Shown in pieces: positions 1 to 33,766 of a stretch of 34,787 nucleotides of DNA. The number at the start of each line of letters is the position of its first letter. Within the stretch, counting starts at the first letter, position 1. This stretch comes from a virus. Both the position numbers and the translations under genes were made by a program. The notes beneath the pieces were generated by a model. That model made no database searches. It was given only the letters and a program-made list of their open reading frames with translations, and was not told the DNA's origin. The DNA lies in UHGV virus genome UHGV-0075096; one strand, 5' to 3'.

Positions 1-49
1 TTGATATATTTAAAACTTAGGACTTATTTGAATCACATTTGAGGTGGTT

Positions 50-565
50 ATGAAAAAAATTGCATGTCTTTCAGCACTGGCCGCAGTTCTGGCTTTCACC
101 GCAGGTACTTCCGTAGCTGCGACTTCTACTGTAACTGGCGGTTACGCACAGAGCGACGCTCAGGGCCAAATGAACAAAATGGGCGGTTTCAACCTGAAAT
201 ACCGCTATGAAGAAGACAACAGCCCGCTGGGTGTGATCGGTTCTTTCACTTACACCGAGAAAAGCCGTACTGCAAGCTCTGGTGACTACAACAAAAACCA
301 GTACTACGGCATCACTGCTGGTCCGGCTTACCGCATTAACGACTGGGCAAGCATCTACGGTGTAGTGGGTGTGGGTTATGGTAAATTCCAGACCACTGAA
401 TACCCGACCTACAAACACGACACCAGCGACTACGGTTTCTCCTACGGTGCTGGTCTGCAGTTCAACCCGATGGAAAACGTTGCTCTGGACTTCTCTTACG
501 AGCAGAGCCGTATTCGTAGCGTTGACGTAGGCACCTGGATTGCCGGTGTTGGTTACCGCTTCTAA
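50..565 (+). CDS. ompX: outer membrane protein X (OmpX), 8-stranded beta-barrel
   Basis: ORF 44..565 translation (MKKIACLSALAAVLAFTAG...GVGYRF) reads as E. coli OmpX with a signal peptide; the ATG at 50 follows a GAGGTGG RBS; recognised from memory, not searched. Confidence 0.93.
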   Translation: MKKIACLSALAAVLAFTAGTSVAATSTVTGGYAQSDAQGQMNKMGGFNLKYRYEEDNSPLGVIGSFTYTEKSRTASSGDYNKNQYYGITAGPAYRINDWASIYGVVGVGYGKFQTTEYPTYKHDTSDYGFSYGAGLQFNPMENVALDFSYEQSRIRSVDVGTWIAGVGYRF

Positions 566-580
566 TCACTTCGGTGATAT

Positions 581-611
581 AAAAAATCCGCCTCTCGGGG
601 CGGATTTTTTT
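581..611. terminator. bidirectional rho-independent terminator between convergent ompX and opgE
   Basis: A6-AATCCGCC-loop-GGCGGATT-T7: GC-rich 8-bp stem flanked by an A-run and a T-run, so it can terminate on either strand. Confidence 0.8.
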
Positions 612-614
612 GTT

Positions 615-2198
615 TTAAGGTTTCGGGTCGAAAATATCGGTTCCGAGATGGTTGTAATCCACCTTCTGTAACTGGAAGTTGGTGATGTATATCGGCCCGG
701 CTTTCTTCTCAGATATAAACGGGTATTTGATATTTATTTCCTTCGCTTTAATTCCCGTCCACTGCGAGAAAAAGCCTAAGAAGTCATTGGCCGAGCGGCG
801 GGCTTTAATCACCCGATGCGCTTTATCGTCGCTGGAAATGACCATAAAAGGCACCTGGAAATTTTGCTGATACTTATCATCATGGGCAAGGTATTGCACG
901 TCTTTGCCGCGCTCTTTAAAGGCCAGACCGTGGTCGGAAAAGTAAACCAGCGAGAAGCTGCTGCCGCTGTTGCGTAACTGATCGTACAGCTTGCGCAGTA
1001 AATTGTCTGTTTGCGTCATGGTATAGAGATAGCACGACGTTTCTTTCGATTGCACAAAGGTTTCGTATTTGCCTTGTGTCCGGTCGCAGGCCTGCGGATG
1101 CGAGCCCATCAGGTGTAGAACAATCAGCTGCGGTTGCGAGTGCTCTTGCGCCAGCACTTGAGCGGTCATATCCAGTAACGCTTCGTCTTTCGTGTTTTTA
1201 TCTGCTTCAAAATTACCTTCTTTCAGGAAGTACACTTCATCTGCTCGTTTGGCGATGCTGGCGATGGCGGTATCGTATTCGCCGATTTGGCCCTGGTTGG
1301 AAAACCACCAGGTCTGGAAGCCCGCGCGATTTGCCAGGGTGACAAAGTTATCCTGAAACTGTGGTTTGCCATCGACAACGCGATTGAGCGTTAAGCCAAG
1401 CGATTTCTGCGTGGAGCCACTGGCGGCAATGTAGTCAGCAAATATCAAACCGTTAACGCTGCTGGCAAACGGGGTATTGTCCCAGTGACCGCCAAAGGCA
1501 CCGAGGGCATCGCGACGCGCGCTTTCTCCGATCACCACCACATAGGTCTGATACTTCGGCTTAACGGCAGTGACCGTCCAGGTATCTTTCATTCCGGAAA
1601 GTTTTGCCATCCGTTCTTGCTCTTCAATCACCTCGTTATTATTGACGATGACATCCTTAGCAAAACGAAATACCGGATAGCCAGTATCTTTCAGTTTAAA
1701 TACGCCGCCCCAGGCCAGGTTTTGCACGGGAGCAACAAAAAATGTCGCCACACTGAATACCAGGCACAGGCTGTCGAAGGTATTCCAGCGCGCTTTTTCA
1801 CTCTCTTTTTTTCGCCTGATTGCTATTACGCCGAGCGCAAAAATAAATATGCCGACCAGGTAGCTGTACCACGGAAAAATCGTCAGGATTTCGGTCGACT
1901 CTTCCATATTGGTGGAGTGCAATGCCAGCAATGTATTGAAGTTAGGCGCGCCGTAGGCCTGAGCAAAAGGGAAATAACAAGCCGCCACCAGCGAACTGAT
2001 ACCGACCAGAACTTTTTGTACGCGAGGCAATGTTCGCCATAGCAAAAGCAAAATAGCCGTAAACGCAGCGGTGTAGAGCAAACTGAAGGGGTAACCTAAG
2101 CCGAGGTTAATTAATAGCGACTGTAAAAAGTAGAACGCAGTCCACGGGCTAAATACCCGGCTACGGGTAACAAGCGATTCTTTGAGGGTTAAATTCAT
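615..2198 (-). CDS. opgE: phosphoethanolamine transferase OpgE (YbiP)
   Basis: 527-aa ORF with an N-terminal multi-TM region and a C-terminal sulfatase-like domain; sequence reads as E. coli OpgE/YbiP, the known ompX neighbour. Confidence 0.9.
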   Translation of the reverse strand: MNLTLKESLVTRSRVFSPWTAFYFLQSLLINLGLGYPFSLLYTAAFTAILLLLWRTLPRVQKVLVGISSLVAACYFPFAQAYGAPNFNTLLALHSTNMEESTEILTIFPWYSYLVGIFIFALGVIAIRRKKESEKARWNTFDSLCLVFSVATFFVAPVQNLAWGGVFKLKDTGYPVFRFAKDVIVNNNEVIEEQERMAKLSGMKDTWTVTAVKPKYQTYVVVIGESARRDALGAFGGHWDNTPFASSVNGLIFADYIAASGSTQKSLGLTLNRVVDGKPQFQDNFVTLANRAGFQTWWFSNQGQIGEYDTAIASIAKRADEVYFLKEGNFEADKNTKDEALLDMTAQVLAQEHSQPQLIVLHLMGSHPQACDRTQGKYETFVQSKETSCYLYTMTQTDNLLRKLYDQLRNSGSSFSLVYFSDHGLAFKERGKDVQYLAHDDKYQQNFQVPFMVISSDDKAHRVIKARRSANDFLGFFSQWTGIKAKEINIKYPFISEKKAGPIYITNFQLQKVDYNHLGTDIFDPKP

Positions 2199-2765: not shown

Positions 2766-3806
2766 CTAAGCTGTCGCGACATTTTTGCGACATTTTAGGG
2801 GGTTAAGTCGCACAGCATCTTCAAGGTGGCTTGGGGCGAAGTGGGCATAACGCATTGTCATGGTTATGTCAGCGTGGCCGAGAATTTTTTGCAAAACCAG
2901 AATGTTTCCGCCGTTCATCATAAAGTGGCTGGCAAATGTATGGCGCAGTACATGGGTAAGCTGGCCGGAGGGGAGTTCAATGCCTGCGCGTTCCAGAGCA
3001 GAGCGGAAAGCGTTGTAGCAGGGCTTGGGGAACAGAGCGCCTTTTGTTTCAGGTAATTCGGACAGAAGTTCATCATCAAGGGGAATTGTTCTGTTGCGCT
3101 TCCCTTTGGTTTTGACGAACGTGACTTTACCCCCGGCGATCTGGGAGCTTTTCAGCGTTGCCGCCTCATTCCACCTTGCGCCGGTAGCAAGGCAGATTTT
3201 GACAACTAATTCTAGGTACTTAACTTTGCTTCGTTTGCATTCCAGTAAAAGCCGATCAATTTCTTCGGTAGTGAGGAAAGCCATTTCGGTTTCATCAGTA
3301 CGATACTGTCTGACGTTTTCCAGTGGGTTGGGTGCTGACCATTCACCAATCCGTTTCAGTTCATTGAACATCGCTAGAAAGTAAGCATGTTCAAGGTTCA
3401 TAGTTTTCGGGGAAACCTTAGATACTCTGTTGGTGCGGGCATAATGCCCATCCAGCCTTTTAGCGCGGTAGGCTGTGAACAACTGGGCATTAAATTCTGT
3501 GGCCAGCGGGAATCCCATGCATTCCGCCGCCCAGGTCATAGCATCTTTACGCTTTTCGCCATTGCTCAAAGCTACGCCGTGGCGTTCATACCACATTGTT
3601 ATCAGATCTATTAAAGTTCGCTTGTCCTTCCCTTCACCCAGCCACGGAGCTGCGTCTACTTTCTGAAGCGTATGGTTTTCGAATGCCAGGGCTTCCCCTT
3701 TCGTGGCAAATTTTTTACGTATACGCTTCCCGTTCTTGCCATTACTGCGGTTGACGGTGTAGAAGTCGGCGATCCATTCGCCTGTAGGAAGTTTACGAAC
3801 GCTCAT
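2766..3806 (-). CDS. int: P2/186-type tyrosine integrase
   Basis: 346 aa; N-terminal region similar to P2 Int (GKNGKRIRKKF...), C-terminal catalytic motifs ATGARWNEA, HVLRHTFASH and the Y of MTMRYAHF; lies 2 bp downstream of cI as in 186. Confidence 0.9.
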   Translation of the reverse strand: MSVRKLPTGEWIADFYTVNRSNGKNGKRIRKKFATKGEALAFENHTLQKVDAAPWLGEGKDKRTLIDLITMWYERHGVALSNGEKRKDAMTWAAECMGFPLATEFNAQLFTAYRAKRLDGHYARTNRVSKVSPKTMNLEHAYFLAMFNELKRIGEWSAPNPLENVRQYRTDETEMAFLTTEEIDRLLLECKRSKVKYLELVVKICLATGARWNEAATLKSSQIAGGKVTFVKTKGKRNRTIPLDDELLSELPETKGALFPKPCYNAFRSALERAGIELPSGQLTHVLRHTFASHFMMNGGNILVLQKILGHADITMTMRYAHFAPSHLEDAVRLNPLKCRKNVATA

Positions 3807-16007: not shown

Positions 16008-16154
16008 ATGAAAGAAAGCCATTTACAAGGTGCACATACCCATACCGTGGGGGCACATAGCCATTCTCTGGGTGGTGCACATACCCATACCGTGGGTGCA
16101 CATAGCCATTCTCTGAGTGGTGCACATACGCACACTTTTAATACTGAGCAGTAA
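16008..16154 (+). CDS. His-rich repeat micro-protein (48 aa, 12 His)
   Basis: Hand translation: MKESHLQGAHTHTVGAHSHSLGGAHTHTVGAHSHSLSGAHTHTFNTEQ; AAGGA RBS 8 nt upstream of the ATG; built on a 45-bp tandem repeat; below the track cutoff. Confidence 0.4.
   Translation: MKESHLQGAHTHTVGAHSHSLGGAHTHTVGAHSHSLSGAHTHTFNTEQ
16029..16136 (+). repeat. 45-bp tandem direct repeat, about 2.4 copies
   Basis: Unit GGTGCACATACCCATACCGTGGG(G/T)GCACATAGCCATTCTCTG(G/A)GT; copies differ at 2 positions; in frame with the micro-ORF. Confidence 0.85.
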
Positions 16155-26725: not shown

Positions 26726-27312
26726 TGACTTTTAAAATGAGTGAAACCGATCAAGCAGTTACTGTTTATAACCTGCGTTCCGACACGAATGAGTTTATTG
26801 GTTCGGGGGACGCTTTTATTCCCGCACATACCGGACTGCCAGCCAACTGCACCACAATAAAACCACCGGTAATCAAAGCAGGGTTTGTGGCAATTTTTGA
26901 TTCAGAGAAGCAAAGATGGATTTCCCGTGAGGATCATCGTGGCGAGGTGGTGTTTGATACAGAAAACGGTAATGAACTGGTGATCACCGAGCCAGGCGCT
27001 TACCCGGAAGGGACAACCACGTTAGCACCGGCTAATGCCTGGCAAAAATGGAATGGTAAGGCGTGGGTGGATGATGCGGAGGCCATGCGAATTGCATTAG
27101 TCAGCGAGGCAGACGCCGAAAAGAAAAGACTGCTTAAACAGGCCAATGACGCCATTGCCACATTGCAGGATGCCGTTGATTTAGACATGGCAACCGAAGA
27201 AGAAGCATTGCTGCTTACCGCATGGAAAAAATACCGCGTTTTACTGAATCGTATTCAACCGGAAGATGCGCCAGAAATTGTGTGGCCGGAGGTGCCTGGA
27301 AATGTGGCGTGA
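26725..27312 (+). CDS. tail fibre assembly protein (Tfa; P2 gpG-like)
   Basis: 195 aa ending with the motif typical of Tfa chaperones (WKKYRVLLNRIQPEDAPEIVWPEVP); directly downstream of the fibre gene. Confidence 0.8.
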   Translation: MTFKMSETDQAVTVYNLRSDTNEFIGSGDAFIPAHTGLPANCTTIKPPVIKAGFVAIFDSEKQRWISREDHRGEVVFDTENGNELVITEPGAYPEGTTTLAPANAWQKWNGKAWVDDAEAMRIALVSEADAEKKRLLKQANDAIATLQDAVDLDMATEEEALLLTAWKKYRVLLNRIQPEDAPEIVWPEVPGNVA

Positions 27313-28027
27313 AGCACGTCTGGCCTTCACGGATTCAGTTGCTGCGCTGAACTGTTCGATCGTCCCTGCGCATCCGTGGATTTATGGGCTGGGACAGCAG
27401 ACAGCGAACGGGGCATATCTCAGCCCGGTTAATGCCGTTCGCTATCTTGCTGAACGCCTGGCCGGAACAGGGGGGAATGCGGATGTGGTGATTATGATGG
27501 TCACCGGACAGACGCAGGAAAACTTTATGGCCAGCCTGAATAACCTGGTCGGGATTTTCCCCGCCCCGGCATTCACGCAGGTCAAACGGCTGGCGCAATC
27601 CGCCGCAGTGCTGGCTATTGAAAAGATGCAGATTCCGGCGAAAACCGCCGCTGCGTTACCTGCGTCCATTCCGCTGTCTGTATCAACCAGCAGGGCAGCT
27701 TTATCTGCTGCGGCAATCAGCCAGGCACAAAAGGCGGCGGGTGCCGGGTTTGATATCGAAGGGCTGAAAAAACAGCTGGGCGAGTTCACGCAACTGCGTG
27801 ACCAGCTTATCAGTGATGTGGCCAGCGGCCTGAATGATTTACAGGGGAAGAGTGCCAGAGCGTGGGTTTTTACTGCCAGCGGAGACACCGGCACCACGTT
27901 ACTGGAACTGGTGAAGGACATTCCGCAGCAGTCTGCCGTTTACACCGCAGCCATGATGCTGGTTGGCGATAATCTTGATGGAATAAAGGGAATGATTCAT
28001 GACTTCGATCCCGACACTGGCGCTTAA
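27302..28027 (+). CDS. hypothetical protein (241 aa) downstream of Tfa
   Basis: Internal ATG with a GGAGG RBS; Ala-rich; no family recognised by eye; occupies the position corresponding to the P2 Z/fun cargo locus. Confidence 0.5.
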   Translation: MWREARLAFTDSVAALNCSIVPAHPWIYGLGQQTANGAYLSPVNAVRYLAERLAGTGGNADVVIMMVTGQTQENFMASLNNLVGIFPAPAFTQVKRLAQSAAVLAIEKMQIPAKTAAALPASIPLSVSTSRAALSAAAISQAQKAAGAGFDIEGLKKQLGEFTQLRDQLISDVASGLNDLQGKSARAWVFTASGDTGTTLLELVKDIPQQSAVYTAAMMLVGDNLDGIKGMIHDFDPDTGA

Positions 28028-28544
28028 TGGCGAGGCTATCCAGCTGAAAAACATGCGGGTGACTGTTTCACAGCAATTTCAGGATAAAGATCAGTCCGGC
28101 CAGACCAGCGCCACAACAAAATCAGAGCAGGGAGCAAAGGGAAAGGAACTGCGGATCAGCGGTGAAATACCTTTTAAACAGCCTGAAATACTGAAGCGTA
28201 TTTTTGAGCTTGCCAGCGCTACCGATGCCAGTGGTAATCGTCAAAAGTACCGTGTGGCGCATGAAGTTGCCCGTGCTGTTAATTTTCGTGAAGCAACGTT
28301 CAGCGGAATGCTGGATGCACCCCAGCAGGACGGGAAAATGTCCTGGCTGGTGACGTTCACACTGGCGGAACATATCAGCGTGCAGGAAAAGCGAGAGGCC
28401 AGAGCAACAGGTAAGACGACCGCAAAAAAACAGACTGCCGGTAGTGCGGGACAGGCCGGTGGCCAGTCTGCCGGAGAAGATGAAGAAAAACTGACGTGGT
28501 TTGAACGCAAGGTGCTGAAGCCCGTCAATGATGCTTTGGGTTAA
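27999..28544 (+). CDS. hypothetical tail-associated protein (181 aa)
   Basis: ORF coupled to the downstream hub/spike gene (TAATG overlap); start uncertain because it overlaps the upstream gene by 29 nt. Confidence 0.45.
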   Translation: MTSIPTLALNGEAIQLKNMRVTVSQQFQDKDQSGQTSATTKSEQGAKGKELRISGEIPFKQPEILKRIFELASATDASGNRQKYRVAHEVARAVNFREATFSGMLDAPQQDGKMSWLVTFTLAEHISVQEKREARATGKTTAKKQTAGSAGQAGGQSAGEDEEKLTWFERKVLKPVNDALG

Positions 28545-30247
28545 TGATGAAACCAGTAAAACGCCTTTACCTTTCAACGGATGAAGTTCACCTGGTGGAT
28601 GCCAGCCTGGTACTGGAGCTGAACAGCTGCGGCCGGGGCTTCATCACCGCAGAGACAACAACCGATTACACCGGAAAACTGGTGCGGCTGGATGTAGGGT
28701 ATACCGATCTGCTTTTGCGCTGGTTTACGGGGTACGTGGAGCGATCGCAGCCCGCAGAAAACGGTTTTCAGCGTCTGTTCATTCGTGAGCTGGTAGGTGT
28801 GTTTGAAAGGATGTGGCCGTGCTCATTTCAACATCCAACTTTACGCGAGGTTGCCAGCTGGCTGGAAGAAAACAGTGGTATCTCGGTCAGTGTGCCTGAT
28901 GCACAGTACAGCGATACCCCCATCCCACATTTTACCCATAACGGTACCGGCTATCAGTTGCTGAACAATCTGGGAAGGGCGTTCAGTATCCAGGATTACA
29001 TCTGGTACCAGTTGCCTGATGGTTCGCTTTACGTCGGTGGCGCAGAAAAGTCACTGTTTGCCGGTCGTCCCGTAGAAATCCCGTCAGAGTTCAGCCAGGG
29101 GGCTGCTGGTGGTAACTCTGTGACATTACCAGTGATCCAGACTATGCGGCCAGGGGTGGAGATGAACGGTGAACGCGTGACTAAAGTTCACCTGACTAAT
29201 GACACGATGGCGATCACATGGACGCCGAGAAACCGCGCAACGGGTAAACCTTTGCAGAAAACACCGGCGCAACGGCAGATTGAAAGCCATTACCCGGAAC
29301 TGGCATCCGGGCTTCATTTGCCAAAGACGGCCAGAGTCGTGGCGCATTCAGAGCCAGTAAAAAGCGGTAACTTTGCCGATCCCTTCCGGCCACGTTACGC
29401 CGTGGACGTGCAACTGCTTGACGCAGACGGAAACCCGGACAATCAGACGCCTGTTTACTCAGCGGTGCCGCTGCCGGTACCAATGGCCGGGAATGATTCA
29501 GGTATGTTTCAGTTCCCGCCTGAAGGGACGCTGGTTGAGGTCGCATTCACAGGAGGCAGACCGGATAAACCCTTTATCAGGCAGACGCTGCCGGATGGCA
29601 CCAGTCTGCCGGACGTTAAACCCGGTGAGCAATTACAGCAGCAGCGGGAAGAAGTATCCCTGAGGGTGACTCAGGCGGGTGACTGGGTAAGGCAGACCGA
29701 TCAGACCATCAGCGAAACATCAATGGTGCGAACCGTAAAAGCCGATACAGAACAGCGCGAACTGGTCAGCCGTGAAACCACGGTGAAAGCCACGGATAAA
29801 ACCACGGTACTGGGAACCGCCACATTGCTGGCCGGAGCCATCCAGCAGGTAAGCGCCGGTGATTATAGCCAGGCGGTGAAAGGTAACAGGCTGGCCAGTA
29901 TTGAAGGAAACGAAGAAACGGACATAGCAGGACAGCAGTCCACTAAAGTGGGCGGTGCTGTAGCCGTGGAGGTTGGCGAAAGTCTGACAGAGAAGATTGC
30001 CGCACTGCGTAAATCAGTGGCTGCTGGCGGTCAGCAGGTCATGGGGGCAACTGTCCATATTGGCAGTGAGAGCATCAACGCCCTGACCATGATGCTGGAT
30101 ACCATTGATTTACTGGCAGAGCTTGCGCAGCAATGCGCGAACCATTCGCACCCCACCGTTGGAACTCCAACCAATGCCGCCGCGTTCACACTGACGGCGA
30201 CGAAAGCCGGGCAGACCCGGAGCAAATACCAGAATATAATTGCCTGA
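28544..30247 (+). CDS. putative baseplate hub/central spike protein (gpD/gpV-like)
   Basis: 567 aa, last gene of the tail module and followed by a strong terminator; the C-terminal region contains CANHSHPTVG (an HxH motif as in spike apex domains). Assignment is inferred from position and motifs. Confidence 0.45.
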   Translation: MMKPVKRLYLSTDEVHLVDASLVLELNSCGRGFITAETTTDYTGKLVRLDVGYTDLLLRWFTGYVERSQPAENGFQRLFIRELVGVFERMWPCSFQHPTLREVASWLEENSGISVSVPDAQYSDTPIPHFTHNGTGYQLLNNLGRAFSIQDYIWYQLPDGSLYVGGAEKSLFAGRPVEIPSEFSQGAAGGNSVTLPVIQTMRPGVEMNGERVTKVHLTNDTMAITWTPRNRATGKPLQKTPAQRQIESHYPELASGLHLPKTARVVAHSEPVKSGNFADPFRPRYAVDVQLLDADGNPDNQTPVYSAVPLPVPMAGNDSGMFQFPPEGTLVEVAFTGGRPDKPFIRQTLPDGTSLPDVKPGEQLQQQREEVSLRVTQAGDWVRQTDQTISETSMVRTVKADTEQRELVSRETTVKATDKTTVLGTATLLAGAIQQVSAGDYSQAVKGNRLASIEGNEETDIAGQQSTKVGGAVAVEVGESLTEKIAALRKSVAAGGQQVMGATVHIGSESINALTMMLDTIDLLAELAQQCANHSHPTVGTPTNAAAFTLTATKAGQTRSKYQNIIA

Positions 30248-30259
30248 CCATGATAACAC

Positions 30260-30282
30260 GCCCGCATAATGCGGGCTTTTTT
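30260..30282 (+). terminator. rho-independent terminator of the tail operon
   Basis: GCCCGCA-TAA-TGCGGGC hairpin followed by TTTTTT, 13 bp after the stop at 30247. Confidence 0.85.
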
Positions 30283-30692
30283 ATACCCTTCTCCAGACGC
30301 AGCAGAACGCACCCTCAGCACTTTAGGCAACAAATTAACCCAACTCAACACACATAAAAGATCGTGCGCATGGCGCTGCGTTGGCGCGACGATGCACCGA
30401 CAAAATAAATCTTTCGCAGACAAAAACGGCGCTACACCGCACCCGCCTGCGGTTTCTGGATCTGGAAAATTTTTCTGTTTTATTTTTCTACAAAACAGAC
30501 CGCCAGACCGCGCCGCTGCTGGCGGCTTTGCGGAGAACTGAAACTGAAATGATTGAAAAGGATTTCACTTTTTTTCAGTGAAAAGGATCTGTGAAGGATC
30601 GATGGGAAAATATAACTATCAGAATATAAAAGAGAAATTGAATTTTAGGTGGCGTTTGTGGATCGTTAGTTAAAGGGGGGGGGATATTCTGT

Positions 30693-30763: not shown

Positions 30764-31480
30764 TTACTTTAAACTGAGTTTAAAATTTTTGAATTTACCA
30801 TACAGGGTATCGCGTACAGAAAAGGAAGGAACCCAATTGAATCCTGTTCGCCATGGGCGAGGACTACCGTGAAAGCATACAACTGAAACATCATCAGGAA
30901 CTTTGCCAGTAGCATAATCTGATGCCAAGTCAGGGTTGTAACCTATCATTTTACGTGTGGCTATATGGCATTTGTAACTAACAACAGATCCGGGAATTAT
31001 ATCTTGCCACAATACAGGTTTCATGACGCTACCCAGAAACCCCTGATCACCCCATTTATCTTCTGTTTGGCATTCATGCATATTTTTTTCGGGGTCAGTC
31101 CAGAACGCATCCCAAACATATTGTTTGATAGACGCAGGAATGAACATAATGGATGAGTTAACCCTGGAAGGGTGGTTAAACTCCCGCAGCATAGTGAACT
31201 CTTTCGCCGCATCAAAGATTTTGATATCACCAGTTATGACAACATCAACGTCAAAATAAAGCAGATCCTTATCACCTATTACCGGATGGTTTGGATTAAA
31301 AAGCTCAATCTTAGACCACCAACCTGGAAGGTTGTGCATTAACGGTGCGGTTTCAACACCAGGGATACTTCCAGCATCAGTTAAGCAAATTGAAGGTATG
31401 CCTTTAAATTGGCTATGCAGCCATTGTGCGTGTTTGGGGGTAAATTCTTTACCGCATTTAAGGACGGATACAATCAGCAT
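30764..31480 (-). CDS. putative GT-A fold glycosyltransferase (GT8-like motifs)
   Basis: 238 aa; DxD-type motif (LLYFDVDVVITGD) and a C-terminal H-x2-G-x2-(K/R)-P-W motif (FHGSPRPW) characteristic of retaining GT8 enzymes; GC visibly lower than the prophage core. Confidence 0.45.
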   Translation of the reverse strand: MLIVSVLKCGKEFTPKHAQWLHSQFKGIPSICLTDAGSIPGVETAPLMHNLPGWWSKIELFNPNHPVIGDKDLLYFDVDVVITGDIKIFDAAKEFTMLREFNHPSRVNSSIMFIPASIKQYVWDAFWTDPEKNMHECQTEDKWGDQGFLGSVMKPVLWQDIIPGSVVSYKCHIATRKMIGYNPDLASDYATGKVPDDVSVVCFHGSPRPWRTGFNWVPSFSVRDTLYGKFKNFKLSLK

Positions 31481-31660
31481 ATGGGAATCCCATTCTTTAG
31501 AGCAATAGTGTGCATTTTTTGAACATCGGCAATACTAAAATAAATAGTCAGGGCATAATTTTCTTAGGTAAGAGTCATGATGCCTCATGCCATTCCTTAC
31601 GTAAAGCTAGGCAGACTCAGCATAATGAGGGGACAAAAAGGGGACGCTGACCACTACAAA

Positions 31661-31689
31661 CAAAAAAGCCACTCCGTCAGAAGTGGCTT
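31661..31689 (-). terminator. rho-independent terminator (minus strand)
   Basis: On the minus strand, AAGCCACT-N8-AGTGGCTT hairpin followed by TTTTTT. Confidence 0.6.
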
Positions 31690-31843
31690 AATTATATGAT
31701 TATAAAGCTAAAATTTGGTGGCCCCTTGGACTTGAACCAGCGCCCGGGCGATTATAAGTCTTATGGTGTAACCTTTTGATATTTATATATAAATTTTATT
31801 TTTATGTGAATTTTAAGGATCTCTAACCGCTTTATTTTTGGCT

Positions 31844-31874
31844 AAAAAACCCGCAGTTGTAGCAATGATGCGGG
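31844..31874 (-). terminator. rho-independent terminator closing the minus-strand cargo operon
   Basis: On the minus strand, CCCGCA...TGCGGG hairpin followed by TTTTTT (plus-strand A6 at 31844-31849); about 220 bp downstream of the last long ORF. Confidence 0.55.
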
Positions 31875-32093
31875 TTGAGTTAGTCTTTAAAACTGAAATT
31901 GATCAGCCATAGCGTTCATAGGTAGCTGCGTATGCATTAACGTTTTTTAGGTGGTGGGGCTACTTGCTGCGTTTGCTGCGTTTGCCGTGGTGGTTGATAA
32001 CCATTGTTCTGCTGATTTGGCCTACTTGATGGTTGATATCCCTCATTTATAGGTTGCCAGCCATCATATTTAGTATTGTTTGCCGGTTTTTCT

Positions 32094-32744
32094 TCAGCCA
32101 TTTTTTACCTCACTATTGTTGGGAGAATGTAATTTTACCTCAATAAACTCAACACTTTCTATTTCATTAGTCAATATTATTATGCCTAATGTATCAGCTA
32201 GTTCGTGATCGAAATCGCCATTCTCATCAAGCGCCCAATGTTTCTCAAGATAGATTTGTTCGGGTTCTGGACTATTGGATGCAAATGAGTCACTTCCATA
32301 AAAACCACCATATTTTTTACCGTTTTTTAGTGTTACCAATACCCAGCAGCGTTGTCTGGTTGAGAAGAAGTAGTCCCAAGAGCGCCCTATAGGGTGTGGA
32401 AGAATATTTTTGACTTTTTCCCAGTTACGAATTTTTAGCAATGCAACAGGTAATAGTACAGGTATTACAATTAAAACTAAAAAGTAAAAAATGTAATATA
32501 AAATAGGGTGTTTCAAAAAAATGTCATTTGTTTCAATTAGATAAATTGGTATTAAAAGAAATGAAAAATTTATGCAACTATATGAAACAACGTCAATTAA
32601 AACTTTTGATGTATCCAAATCAATTGATGGGTGAAATAGTCTGTAAACTCTCATGCTGATAAATCCGGGCATAATGAACAGTACAAATAAAAACAATTTC
32701 CCCTTCTCTAAAATGTCCATTTTAATTCCTTTTGCATAAATCAA
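32094..32744 (-). CDS. uncharacterised membrane protein (3 predicted TM helices plus a roughly 100-aa soluble C-terminal domain)
   Basis: 216 aa; hydrophobic segments [26 protein letters not shown] and [20 protein letters not shown]; its ATG overlaps the upstream stop in an ATGA coupling; AT-rich codon usage. Confidence 0.6.
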
Positions 32745-33766
32745 TCATCTTTATTCATCAAATCATGGTGATATCCACAAACACCTCCAAAATCTTGTTC
32801 GTCTTGGGAAAGTGTTGTGCCACATATATAACATTCATTATAGTCAACTTCATAACCACACCACCGACATTTTTGCTCAGCTAGAATAAATGTATCATGG
32901 TTACAGTTAAAACATTCTTCATAAGTCGGTTCATCGCCATCAGGAGGCCAATAAAAAAACTCATCTTCAAAAACCTGCATAAGCAAAGGCGTAAATAAAT
33001 TGATATTCCCGCATGCAACGCACAAATACTTAAAATCGCTTTCAAAATCTTCTACTGTCAGACCTTCTTCTAAACTATCTTGTGAGGCTTTTATAAGTTT
33101 AGAACCACATTTATCGCAGCAACATTCGGGTAAAAATTCCATCATGCCTTCTGGAATACCTGCATACTCCCATGTTGACCTACACTCATATAATTTCGAA
33201 TTATAAAAAGTTTTGTGTTCCAGCATTGTACTCCAGGAACTGCCTAAAACATCTTGTGGAATTTTATCAAGTTCATTTGTTATGAAACTTTCAAGAACTG
33301 GAAATAAATCGGCGACAAAACCAGCAAGCTCGCCGAAAGTGTTTTGAGGATGTAAGTGTTCAAGATGATTTCGGCAATCCTGAAGTTTTTCAATGGCTGG
33401 CCAATCAACTTTTATGTTGAATTTATGAAAGCGCTCCTTTATGCCACAAACATCAATAGTCGATTTTTTAAACTTTCCTTCAGGTTTCCATTCTACCCCA
33501 CCTTTCCCATCGGGGTGGGGAAGCATTTTAGACGGTGGGTTATGTATTAGCACATACGCATGCTCAGGCGTGTCAACAGATTTGGCGATTTTATATTTGA
33601 ATAGTAATAATAAACCAGCGTAAAGATTACGTATGGATGAAAGAGTTCGCAATGAGTTATCAGGTTGTTGGGATAACTGGAAATCTTCAATCCCAAGTTG
33701 TATTGAAGCAATTGCGTTGTCATATAACTTATCCGCATCTAAGGTTAGTGAGGTTGTGTTACTCAT
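32741..33766 (-). CDS. uncharacterised protein with C-terminal multi-CxxC zinc-ribbon-like region
   Basis: 341 aa; C-terminal third contains CCCDKC, CVAC, CFNC, CRWC, CYIC and CGYHH; N-terminal domain contains an R-N-x3-H motif (RNHLEH); AAGGA RBS. Confidence 0.6.

What the first reader, a model, noticed from the sequence alone, without database searches (positions are those of the whole stretch)
28544..30247. Large terminal tail protein that may be a fused hub-spike with an HxH apex motif
The 567-aa last tail gene is longer than P2 gpD (387 aa), and its C-terminal region carries CANHSHPTVG, recalling the metal-binding HxH apex of phage and T6SS spikes. P2 encodes hub and spike as separate proteins, so a VgrG-like fusion would be a notable architectural difference. 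HxH motifs also occur in the fibre tip and the micro-ORF in this element.
Basis: inference. Interest (0 to 1): 0.35.

Follow-up and report, generated by a model that had tools for sequence, protein, structure and literature searches.

The report
Fused baseplate hub-spike of HP1-like prophage
The last tail gene of this E. coli prophage does encode the baseplate hub and the membrane-piercing spike as one protein with a conserved two-histidine tip, but this is the normal, already noted arrangement in phage HP1 and its relatives.

Summary
The ORF 28544..30247 (+, 567 aa) and the CANHSHPTVG string (residues 531-540) are real. The element is an HP1-type member of the Peduoviridae, about 97% identical in DNA to Escherichia phage ESSI2_ev015. 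The protein is the full-length orthologue of HP1 orf35 and K139 orf39 (phrog_2258).

A confident AlphaFold2 model (pLDDT 89.5) matches whole VgrG-type fused hub-spikes best. It also matches separate hubs (Mu gp44) and separate spikes (P2 gpV). Sequence evidence agrees:
- residues 1-235 hit a baseplate-hub PHROG;
- residues about 290-355 hit the VgrG/gpV OB-fold;
- residues 413-508 hit the T4 gp5 beta-helix.

Many relatives encode the two halves as separate genes, split at residue about 230-242. No other hub or spike gene is in the element. The upstream orf34-like protein has a tail-tube fold, so it is a tube-initiator candidate.

H534 and H536 are the only invariant residues of a C-terminal cap of about 57 residues, and 315 of 317 homologues carry HxH there. 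The cap is predicted as helix-HxH-helix, unlike the beta-structured gpV apex, and no solved structure matches it by sequence.

A 2023 paper already notes that gpD and gpV homologues are fused in HP1.

The parts
28544..30247 (+). Whole gene: 567-aa fused baseplate hub-spike, orthologue of HP1 orf35 / K139 orf39
   Evidence: ORF. phrog_2258 'baseplate protein' E 3e-274 over the full length. 40% identity over the full length to HP1 orf35 and 34% to K139 orf39. AF2 model pLDDT 89.5. Best fold matches are VgrG-type fused hub-spikes.
28544..29233 (+). Hub module, residues 1-230: beta-barrel plus an inserted alpha/beta domain; compact compared with the 387-aa P2 gpD
   Evidence: phrog_196 'baseplate hub' E 1.6e-6 for residues 26-165. 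Fold matches to Mu gp44 (1wru), MuSo2 (3cdd) and R2 pyocin hub (6u5h). BFVD matches named Phage protein D / 43 kDa tail protein. Stand-alone homologues of 226-244 aa exist, for example Vibrio phage PV94 gp46. The boundaries are approximate.
29234..29317 (+). Junction, residues 231-258: linker and the short helices that begin the spike module; relatives are split into two genes here
   Evidence: Helices at 241-249 and 251-255 in the model. C-only homologues start at query residue 242-250 within their first 13 residues. PV94 gp47 starts here.
29318..29698 (+). OB-fold region of the spike module, residues about 259-385
   Evidence: Pfam Phage_base_V covers residues 309-345 (23.0 bits, just under the 23.8 cut-off). 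VgrG 6sjl aligns to residues 292-355. The family profile matches VgrS and VgrG1 across the OB-fold and beta-helix, E 4e-5 to 9e-4. P2 gpV 3qr8 fold match has TM 0.79.
29699..30073 (+). Triple-stranded beta-helix (gp5-like needle), residues about 386-510
   Evidence: The T4 gp5 C-terminal beta-helix aligns to residues 413-508, E 4.5e-7. Pfam Gp5_C scores 22.3 bits against a 20.4 cut-off. phrog_430 and phrog_694 'hub and tail lysozyme' also match.
30074..30244 (+). C-terminal cap, residues 511-567: predicted helix 513-533, loop with H534-S-H536 (30143-30151), helix 545-563; proposed metal-binding tip
   Evidence: Secondary structure with block-mean pLDDT of about 85-93. HxH are the only invariant columns. 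315 of 317 homologues carry HxH, and the cap ends at the C-terminus. No Pfam or PDB sequence match.
30260..30285 (+). Terminator-like hairpin and T-run ending the late tail operon
   Evidence: sequence.
27999..28544 (+). Upstream partner gene (HP1 orf34 family, PF25759), a tail-tube-fold protein and probable tube initiator; translationally coupled to the hub-spike gene
   Evidence: PF25759 E 4e-54. AF2 core residues 7-137 have high pLDDT. Best fold matches are baseplate and tube-initiator chains of Milano, Mu and PVC, then tube proteins and Hcp, at weak E values of 1e-3 or worse. TAATG overlap. gpU-like by HHpred in PMC10612066, marked there as uncertain.
27266..28027 (+). orf33-like gene (phrog_1677), function unknown; the likely start is the ATG at 27302
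   Evidence: phrog_1677 E 3e-76, no Pfam, NCBIfam or PDB sequence match. No counterpart lies between the fibre gene and the orf34-like gene in PV94. It was not modelled.
23002..25110 (+). Baseplate wedge genes that would surround the hub-spike: DUF2590 (23002-23349), Baseplate_J (23292-24530), Tail_P2_I (24517-25110)
   Evidence: Pfam matches; PHROG matches.

Best explanation
The gene encodes the central hub and the membrane-piercing spike of the contractile-tail baseplate as one polypeptide, presumably a trimer. This is the same architecture as VgrG of type VI secretion and as Afp8/PVC8 of extracellular contractile injection systems. Residues 1-230 form a compact gp27/gpD-type hub. It sits under the tube initiator (probably the orf34-like protein) and inside the wedge ring (DUF2590, J-like and I-like proteins). 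Residues 243-567 form a gpV/gp5-type spike: an N-terminal helix, an OB-fold collar, a gp5-like triple beta-helix and a 57-residue cap. In the cap, a helix leads to the invariant H534-x-H536 and a second helix returns. In a trimer this would give a six-helix bundle whose three HxH pairs meet on the three-fold axis and bind a metal ion, as the HxH pairs of P2 gpV and phi92 gp138 bind iron. On sheath contraction the tube would drive this rigid tip through the outer membrane. Shown here: homology, domain order, fold similarity, the split in relatives, and motif invariance. Inferred: trimer state, six-helix geometry, metal binding, and position within the baseplate.
For: Full-length orthology to HP1 orf35 and K139 orf39 in a syntenic HP1-type tail cluster. 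Confident model, pLDDT 89.5. Foldseek top hits are complete fused hub-spikes aligned over about 550-700 columns, E 3e-20 to 1e-15, followed by hub-only and spike-only proteins. BFVD hits are Phage protein D / 43 kDa tail proteins. Sequence level: phrog_196 baseplate hub for residues 26-165; OB-fold and Gp5_C; T4 gp5 beta-helix E 4.5e-7; VgrS/VgrG1 by family profile. The two modules occur as separate genes in many relatives, split exactly at the predicted hub/spike junction. No other Phage_GPD or Phage_base_V gene is in the element. The HxH is invariant and C-terminal. [quoted passage not shown]
Against: No significant direct sequence similarity to P2 gpD or gpV (hhalign probability below 1%), and the hub profile finds no solved hub by sequence. 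The hub assignment therefore rests on a predicted fold, one PHROG hit and a published HHpred hit at 10% identity. The hub module is only about 230 aa against 285-390 aa for solved hubs, and I could not check whether it holds both tube-like barrels needed for a pseudo-hexameric adaptor. The cap is predicted helical, unlike the beta-structured iron-binding apex of gpV, so the analogy for metal binding is by motif only. orf33 remains unassigned.
Confidence: 0.8

Rival explanations
1. The protein is a fused hub-spike, but the HxH is not an axial metal site at the distal tip. The two C-terminal helices might instead fold back on the beta-helix, or serve in trimerisation, in docking of a separate tip protein, or in contact with the tape measure. 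The histidines would then be conserved for that reason.
For: The cap is predicted helical, not like the gpV apex. No solved structure shares its sequence. A few relatives replace HxH with other tips, such as LLTVTC..APG or Cys-rich C..C..G..H ends, so the motif is not indispensable to the family.
Against: The two histidines are the only invariant residues of the cap, in a loop between two helices at the extreme C-terminus after the beta-helix. Small residues (A525, A528, A532) occupy the core positions just before them, which fits a tapering bundle (read directly from the sequence). No PAAR-like gene was seen in the element.
Confidence: 0.2
2. Only the C-terminal half is a baseplate spike. The N-terminal 230 residues would be an unrelated or adaptor domain, and the real hub would be supplied by orf33 and/or orf34.
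For: No significant match to Pfam Phage_GPD for this protein. Only 1 of 25 N-module relatives gives a faint hit, E 0.036. The module is shorter than known hubs. orf33 has no assignment.
Against: phrog_196 'baseplate hub' E 1.6e-6 for the N-module here and E 3.9e-6 for PV94 gp46. Hub-only structures match with Foldseek probability 1.0. BFVD hits are gpD-like proteins. orf34 has a tube fold, not a hub fold. orf33 has no counterpart at that position in PV94. Published HHpred assigns the N-part to gpD.
Confidence: 0.05
3. The long ORF is an artefact: a frameshift-restored or mis-assembled join of two adjacent genes in this particular element.
For: Relatives with two separate genes exist.
Against: The single 530-580-aa ORF is conserved across Escherichia, Salmonella, Cronobacter, Yersinia, Haemophilus, Pasteurella, Aeromonas, Vibrio and Pseudomonas phages and prophages. 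It is found in 50 complete E. coli genomes.
Confidence: 0.01

Closest known systems
Haemophilus phage HP1 orf35 (UniProt P51739), HP2 orf35, Vibrio phage K139 orf39, Cronobacter phage ESSI-2 'baseplate protein' (phrog_2258)
   Same: Full-length orthologues (98% identity to ESSI2_ev015, 79% to ESSI-2, 40% to HP1, 34% to K139). Same position as the last gene of the tail operon after orf33 and orf34. Same domain order and the same C-terminal HxH.
   Different: Nothing architectural. This is simply the E. coli prophage copy.
VgrG (T6SS TssI) and eCIS spikes Afp8 / PVC8 / AlgoCIS Alg8-type proteins
   Same: One chain carries a gp27-like hub, an OB-fold and a beta-helix. These are the best Foldseek matches over the whole length, with weak sequence matches in the OB-fold and helix region.
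   Different: The context is a phage tail, not a secretion system. TIGR03361 and TIGR01646 scores of about 16 bits are far below their cut-offs of 186 and 122. The hub is shorter. The protein ends in its own helical HxH cap, and no PAAR gene was found in the element.
Phage P2 gpD (hub, 387 aa) plus gpV (iron-loaded spike, 211 aa); Mu gp44 plus gp45; R2 pyocin hub plus spike
   Same: The same two functions and folds (Foldseek matches to 3qr8, 1wru, 9ki1, 6u5h and 4s37). The tip carries an HxH, as in gpV.
   Different: Those systems use two genes, here there is one. There is no detectable direct sequence similarity to gpD or gpV. The hub is about 40% shorter. The predicted apex is a helical hairpin rather than the beta-structured apex domain of gpV.
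Split relatives: Vibrio phage PV94 gp46 + gp47, Pseudoalteromonas phages ACA1/ACA2 gp48 + gp49 (phrog_4011 for the spike half)
   Same: Homologous hub and spike modules, 34-38% identical, in the same operon position.
   Different: The modules are encoded as two genes that meet at the position of residue about 230-242. PV94 gp47 is shorter and ends in a Cys/His-containing tip without HxH.
T4 gp27-gp5 complex
   Same: The gp5 C-terminal beta-helix is the strongest solved-structure sequence match (E 4.5e-7).
   Different: No lysozyme domain, no separate gp27, no gp5.4 PAAR tip.

Membership tests
HP1 orf35 / phrog_2258 baseplate hub-spike family | Full-length homology to HP1 orf35-type proteins | tested here: met
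   phrog_2258 E 3e-274, residues 2-567 against profile 1-544 of 544. tblastn covers the full length at 40% identity to HP1 and 34% to K139.
HP1 orf35 / phrog_2258 baseplate hub-spike family | Last gene of an HP1-type tail operon, after the fibre, fibre-assembly, orf33 and orf34 genes | tested here: met
   Gene order in the window matches HP1 orf27-orf35.
VgrG-type fused hub-spike (architecture class) | gp27-like hub at the N-terminus of the same chain | tested here: met
   Met at fold level and by phrog_196 E 1.6e-6. Whether both tube-like barrels are present was not resolved.
VgrG-type fused hub-spike (architecture class) | gp5-type OB-fold followed by a triple-stranded beta-helix | tested here: met
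   Gp5_C is above its cut-off and Phage_base_V is 0.8 bit below its cut-off. T4 gp5 helix E 4.5e-7. VgrS/VgrG1 found by profile.
T6SS VgrG/TssI (TIGR03361, TIGR01646) | Score above the family cut-off | tested here: not met
   15.8 bits against a 186 cut-off, and 16.2 bits against 122.
T6SS VgrG/TssI (TIGR03361, TIGR01646) | T6SS gene neighbourhood | tested here: not met
   The neighbours are phage tail, lysis and head genes.
P2 gpD hub (Pfam Phage_GPD, PF05954) | Pfam match above the gathering score, or direct similarity to gpD | tested here: not met
   No Phage_GPD hit for this protein. hhalign to P2 gpD gives probability 0.4%. The similarity is at fold level only.
Iron-loaded spike of the P2 gpV / phi92 gp138 type | OB-fold plus beta-helix spike fold | tested here: met
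   3qr8 TM 0.79, rmsd 3.4 over 180 columns.
Iron-loaded spike of the P2 gpV / phi92 gp138 type | Conserved HxH at the C-terminal apex | tested here: met
   H534 and H536 are invariant, and 315 of 317 homologues carry HxH.
Iron-loaded spike of the P2 gpV / phi92 gp138 type | Beta-structured apex domain of the gpV kind | tested here: not met
   The predicted cap is helix-loop-helix, with no sequence similarity to gpV. This rests on a monomer prediction.
Iron-loaded spike of the P2 gpV / phi92 gp138 type | A metal ion bound by six histidines on the three-fold axis | not testable with these tools
   Needs a trimer structure or metal analysis.

The most novel reading that the evidence does not exclude
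The 57-residue helix-HxH-helix cap may be an uncharacterised kind of metal-loaded spike tip. It would be a trimeric six-helix bundle that tapers to a hexa-histidine site, structurally distinct from the beta-structured gpV/gp138 apex and from PAAR. It is conserved in 76 of 78 cap-bearing 50%-identity cluster representatives of both fused and split spikes, and a few lineages have exchanged it for Cys-containing or other tips. A second possibility is that the compact hub of about 230 aa needs the tube-fold orf34 protein to complete the six-fold to three-fold adaptor.
Probability: 0.4. Interest if true: 0.4.

Novelty: new member of a known kind. Interest (0 to 1): 0.22.

Why it matters
The result gives a functional name to a protein that NCBI's PGAP pipeline still calls 'hypothetical protein' in E. 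coli genomes (50 of 5,426 complete genomes). It also completes the baseplate inventory of HP1-type Peduoviridae: hub and spike in one gene, with a tube-fold partner upstream. This family holds both the fused and the split state of hub and spike, with a defined junction, which makes it a convenient natural system for asking what covalent hub-spike linkage (as in VgrG) changes. The invariant HxH in a predicted helical cap is a small, testable extension of the 'iron-loaded spike' idea. None of this changes the current understanding of contractile tails.

Tried and rejected
- hhalign of the family profile against single P2 gpD and gpV sequences gave nothing (probability below 1%). The single-sequence templates are too weak, so I relied on the fold search and PHROG profiles instead.
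- A profile of the N-module against PDB sequences gave only chance-level hits. The top Foldseek target 7aef_q appeared at E 0.32, which is a hint and not evidence.
- Pfam scans of 25 N-module relatives gave one faint Phage_GPD hit, E 0.036.
- A profile of the cap against PDB sequences gave only coiled-coil-like chance hits such as Lpp.
- orf33 and orf34 have no PDB sequence or NCBIfam matches.
- The orf34 model matches tube and tube-initiator proteins only weakly (E 1e-3 or worse), so 'tube initiator' is a likely assignment, not a shown one.
- A search for attL/attR direct repeats between 2150 and 30800 found none at seed 14, so the right-hand prophage boundary is not defined.
- Literature searches for HP1 orf35 or Peduoviridae hub/spike structures found no solved HP1-type baseplate. 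The 2026 P2 preprint does not cover HP1-type tails.
- I considered a linked-trimer prediction of the cap and dropped it. The tool returns no coordinates, so the histidine geometry could not have been read.
Full report
**Observation.** The window holds an ORF at 28544..30247 (+), ATG start, 567 aa.
- Its ATG shares one base with the TAA stop of the upstream gene (TAATG). A second ATG at 28547 matches the start used by most homologues.
- The stop at 30245-30247 is followed by a G+C-rich hairpin and T-run at 30260-30285. This is therefore the last gene of the late tail operon.
- CANHSHPTVG is residues 531-540 (30134-30163). H534-S-H536 is the only HxH among the 11 histidines.
- One HxH in such a protein is not improbable by composition (about 0.2 expected). 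The case rests on conservation, described under "The HxH and the cap" below.

**What the element is.** From the integrase (2766..3806, -) to this gene, the window carries a Peduoviridae-type prophage.
- It has P2-like replication, regulatory, portal, terminase, scaffold, capsid and gpL/gpR genes.
- Its tail is HP1-type: sheath DUF2586, tube Phage_HP1_Orf24, assembly chaperone, tape measure, DUF2590, Baseplate_J, Tail_P2_I, fibre, fibre-assembly protein, an orf33-like gene, HP1_ORF34 (PF25759), then the gene in question.
- The DNA of 27266-30300 is about 97% identical to Escherichia phage ESSI2_ev015 and relatives.
- The protein is 98% identical to theirs, 79% to Cronobacter phage ESSI-2, 40% to HP1 orf35 and 34% to K139 orf39, each over the full length. 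The gene order matches HP1 orf27-orf35.
- It matches phrog_2258 'baseplate protein' end to end (E 3e-274).
- It occurs in 50 of 5,426 complete E. coli genomes, where PGAP calls it 'hypothetical protein'.

**Domain evidence from sequence.**
- Pfam gives a borderline Phage_base_V OB-fold at residues 309-345 (23.0 bits against a 23.8 cut-off) and Gp5_C above its cut-off.
- phmmer against PDB sequences finds the T4 gp5 C-terminal beta-helix at residues 413-508 (E 4.5e-7) and a VgrG OB-fold at 292-355.
- A 134-sequence family profile finds VgrS and VgrG1 across the OB-fold and helix region (E 4e-5 to 9e-4).
- The N-terminal 235 residues on their own match phrog_196 'baseplate hub' (E 1.6e-6). The stand-alone homologue PV94 gp46 does the same (E 3.9e-6).
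- Direct comparison with P2 gpD and gpV shows no sequence similarity. T6SS VgrG models score far below their cut-offs.

**Structure.** AlphaFold2 with the 134-sequence alignment gave a confident model: mean pLDDT 89.5 and no segment below 50.
- Foldseek against the PDB ranks complete fused hub-spikes first: AlgoCIS 7aef_q (3e-20), Bacteroides and other VgrGs (9jg9, 8gra, 4mtk, 9mlp), Anabaena and Streptomyces CIS, PVC8 (6j0m, 9qgm) and Afp8 (6rbk). These align over about 550-700 columns.
- Hub-only proteins come next: PhiTE, Mu gp44 1wru, MuSo2 3cdd, P1, E217 and the R2 pyocin hub 6u5h.
- Spike-only proteins follow: the Mu baseplate chain 9ki1_V, P2 gpV 3qr8 (TM 0.79, rmsd 3.4) and the R2 pyocin spike 4s37.
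- BFVD matches are 'Phage protein D', '43 kDa tail protein' and 'Late control GPD' types.
- The high rmsd of the full-length matches is expected, because a monomer model cannot form the intertwined trimeric helix.
- The Foldseek table gives no alignment ranges and I had no coordinates. Domain boundaries therefore come from secondary structure, sequence matches and the natural split point, and they are approximate.

**Fused and split forms.** A scan of 1.84 billion cluster representatives found 723 relatives at E ≤ 0.001. I classified the 150 best:
- 12 are fused full-length proteins of 526-612 aa.
- 11 are N-only proteins of 226-244 aa covering query residues 2-228.
- 67 are C-only proteins, mostly 300-340 aa, that begin at query residue 242-250 within their first 13 residues.
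- Vibrio phage PV94 shows the split form in context: fibre, orf34-like gene, gp46 (228 aa, hub), gp47 (254 aa, spike).

The junction at residue about 230-242 is thus a real module boundary. The C-module begins with a short helix before the OB-fold, as P2 gpV does (read from the gpV sequence).

**Is there another hub or spike in the element?** None was found. None of the ORFs scanned in the element, the early region included, has a Phage_GPD, Phage_base_V or PAAR match.
- The orf34-like protein was modelled, with a high-confidence core at residues 7-137. Its best fold matches are baseplate and tube-initiator chains (Milano, Mu 9ki1_u, PVC 6j0n_b, A-1(L) initiators), then tube proteins and Hcp.
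- Those matches are weak (E 1e-3 or worse). Tail-tube fold is likely and tube initiator is plausible.
- orf33 has no assignment and was not modelled. It has no counterpart at that position in PV94.

**The HxH and the cap.** After the beta-helix the model has helix 513-533, the loop N-H-S-H-P-T-V-G, and helix 545-563. Block-mean pLDDT is about 85-93.
- H534 and H536 are invariant in the 134-sequence alignment.
- They are the only invariant columns among 36 diverged cap sequences with 37% mean column identity.
- Of 317 fetched proteins with a full cap, 315 have HxH, including 76 of 78 representatives of 50%-identity clusters. The cap ends a median of one residue from the C-terminus.
- The first helix has 3-4 spaced hydrophobic residues (I511, L514, L518, I521) that give way to alanines (A525, A528, A532) just before the histidines. 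This fits a trimeric bundle that narrows toward the tip (my reading of the sequence; inference).
- I therefore propose a six-helix bundle with a hexa-histidine metal site at its distal end. This differs from the beta-structured iron-binding apex of gpV. No solved structure or Pfam family matches the cap by sequence.
- The exceptions carry other tips, such as LLTVTC..APG or Cys-rich C..C..G..H ends.
- Metal binding and geometry are not shown.

**Literature.** A 2023 genomic study of Pseudoalteromonas phages ACA1 and ACA2 used HHpred to assign the HP1-type tail genes.
- It maps P51739N to gpD and P51739C to gpV/3QR8, and maps orf34 (P51738) to gpU, marked as uncertain (PMC10612066).
- I found no solved HP1-type baseplate. 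The 2026 P2 cryo-EM preprint does not treat HP1-type tails.

**Verdict.**
- This is the ordinary state of a well-populated phage family and has already been noted in print.
- The only part that may be new is the helical HxH cap, and possibly the unusually compact hub. Both need a trimer structure to evaluate.
- Interest is low to modest.

Noticed in passing
window 16008..16154 (+), with tandem 45-nt repeats at 16029-16118: A 48-aa micro-ORF lies between the small terminase and gpL genes: MKESHLQGAHTHTVGAHSHSLGGAHTHTVGAHSHSLSGAHTHTFNTEQ, with five GAHxH units. Its DNA repeat is about 60% similar to the HxH-repeat region of the tail fibre (26555-26620). tblastn finds it only in Escherichia phage ESSI2_ev129, where RefSeq labels it 'tail fiber protein'. 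Its function is unknown. A fibre-tip-like fragment or a small metal-binding peptide are both possible.
   Followed up: partly
window 25121..26725 (+), C-terminal part near 26555-26620: The tail fibre ends in repeated (G)AHxHT units ([31 protein letters not shown]). These recall the iron-binding HxH needle of the T4 gp37 type; that comparison is from my own knowledge and was not tested.
   Followed up: no
L002 (Vibrio phage PV94) 3977-5617: Hub and spike are separate, overlapping genes here (gp46 of 228 aa, gp47 of 254 aa). The spike is short and ends ...GGKGVCTGATVCPFTGGGHVDVSTTVFAGK, without HxH. A 65-aa gene follows it. The same layout appears in many Vibrio and Pseudoalteromonas phages. RefSeq labels the orf34 homologue in PV94 and in Yersinia phage vB_YenM_324 'adenine glycosylase', probably a mis-annotation.
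   Followed up: partly
window 27266..28027 (+) (likely start 27302): The orf33-like protein (phrog_1677) has no Pfam, NCBIfam or PDB sequence match and is Ala-rich. It sits between the fibre-assembly gene and the orf34-like gene, and has no counterpart at that position in PV94. Its role in the baseplate is unknown.
   Followed up: partly
window 30764..33766 (-): Downstream of the tail operon terminator, on the opposite strand, lie a glycosyltransferase (phrog_1962, category 'moron'; no Pfam hit), a DUF6338 membrane protein and a further 341-aa ORF. These may be a lysogenic-conversion (surface polysaccharide modification) cassette at the prophage end. No att repeats were found, so the prophage boundary is undefined.
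   Followed up: partly
window 44..2198: To the left of the integrase are an Ail/Lom-family outer-membrane beta-barrel protein (44..565, +) and a 527-aa sulfatase-family protein (615..2198, -). These are presumably host or flanking genes.
   Followed up: no
E. coli RefSeq genomes (H75-H82): PGAP annotates this hub-spike as 'hypothetical protein', and its orf34-like neighbour as either 'baseplate complex protein' or 'hypothetical protein'. The functional name could be transferred.
   Followed up: no
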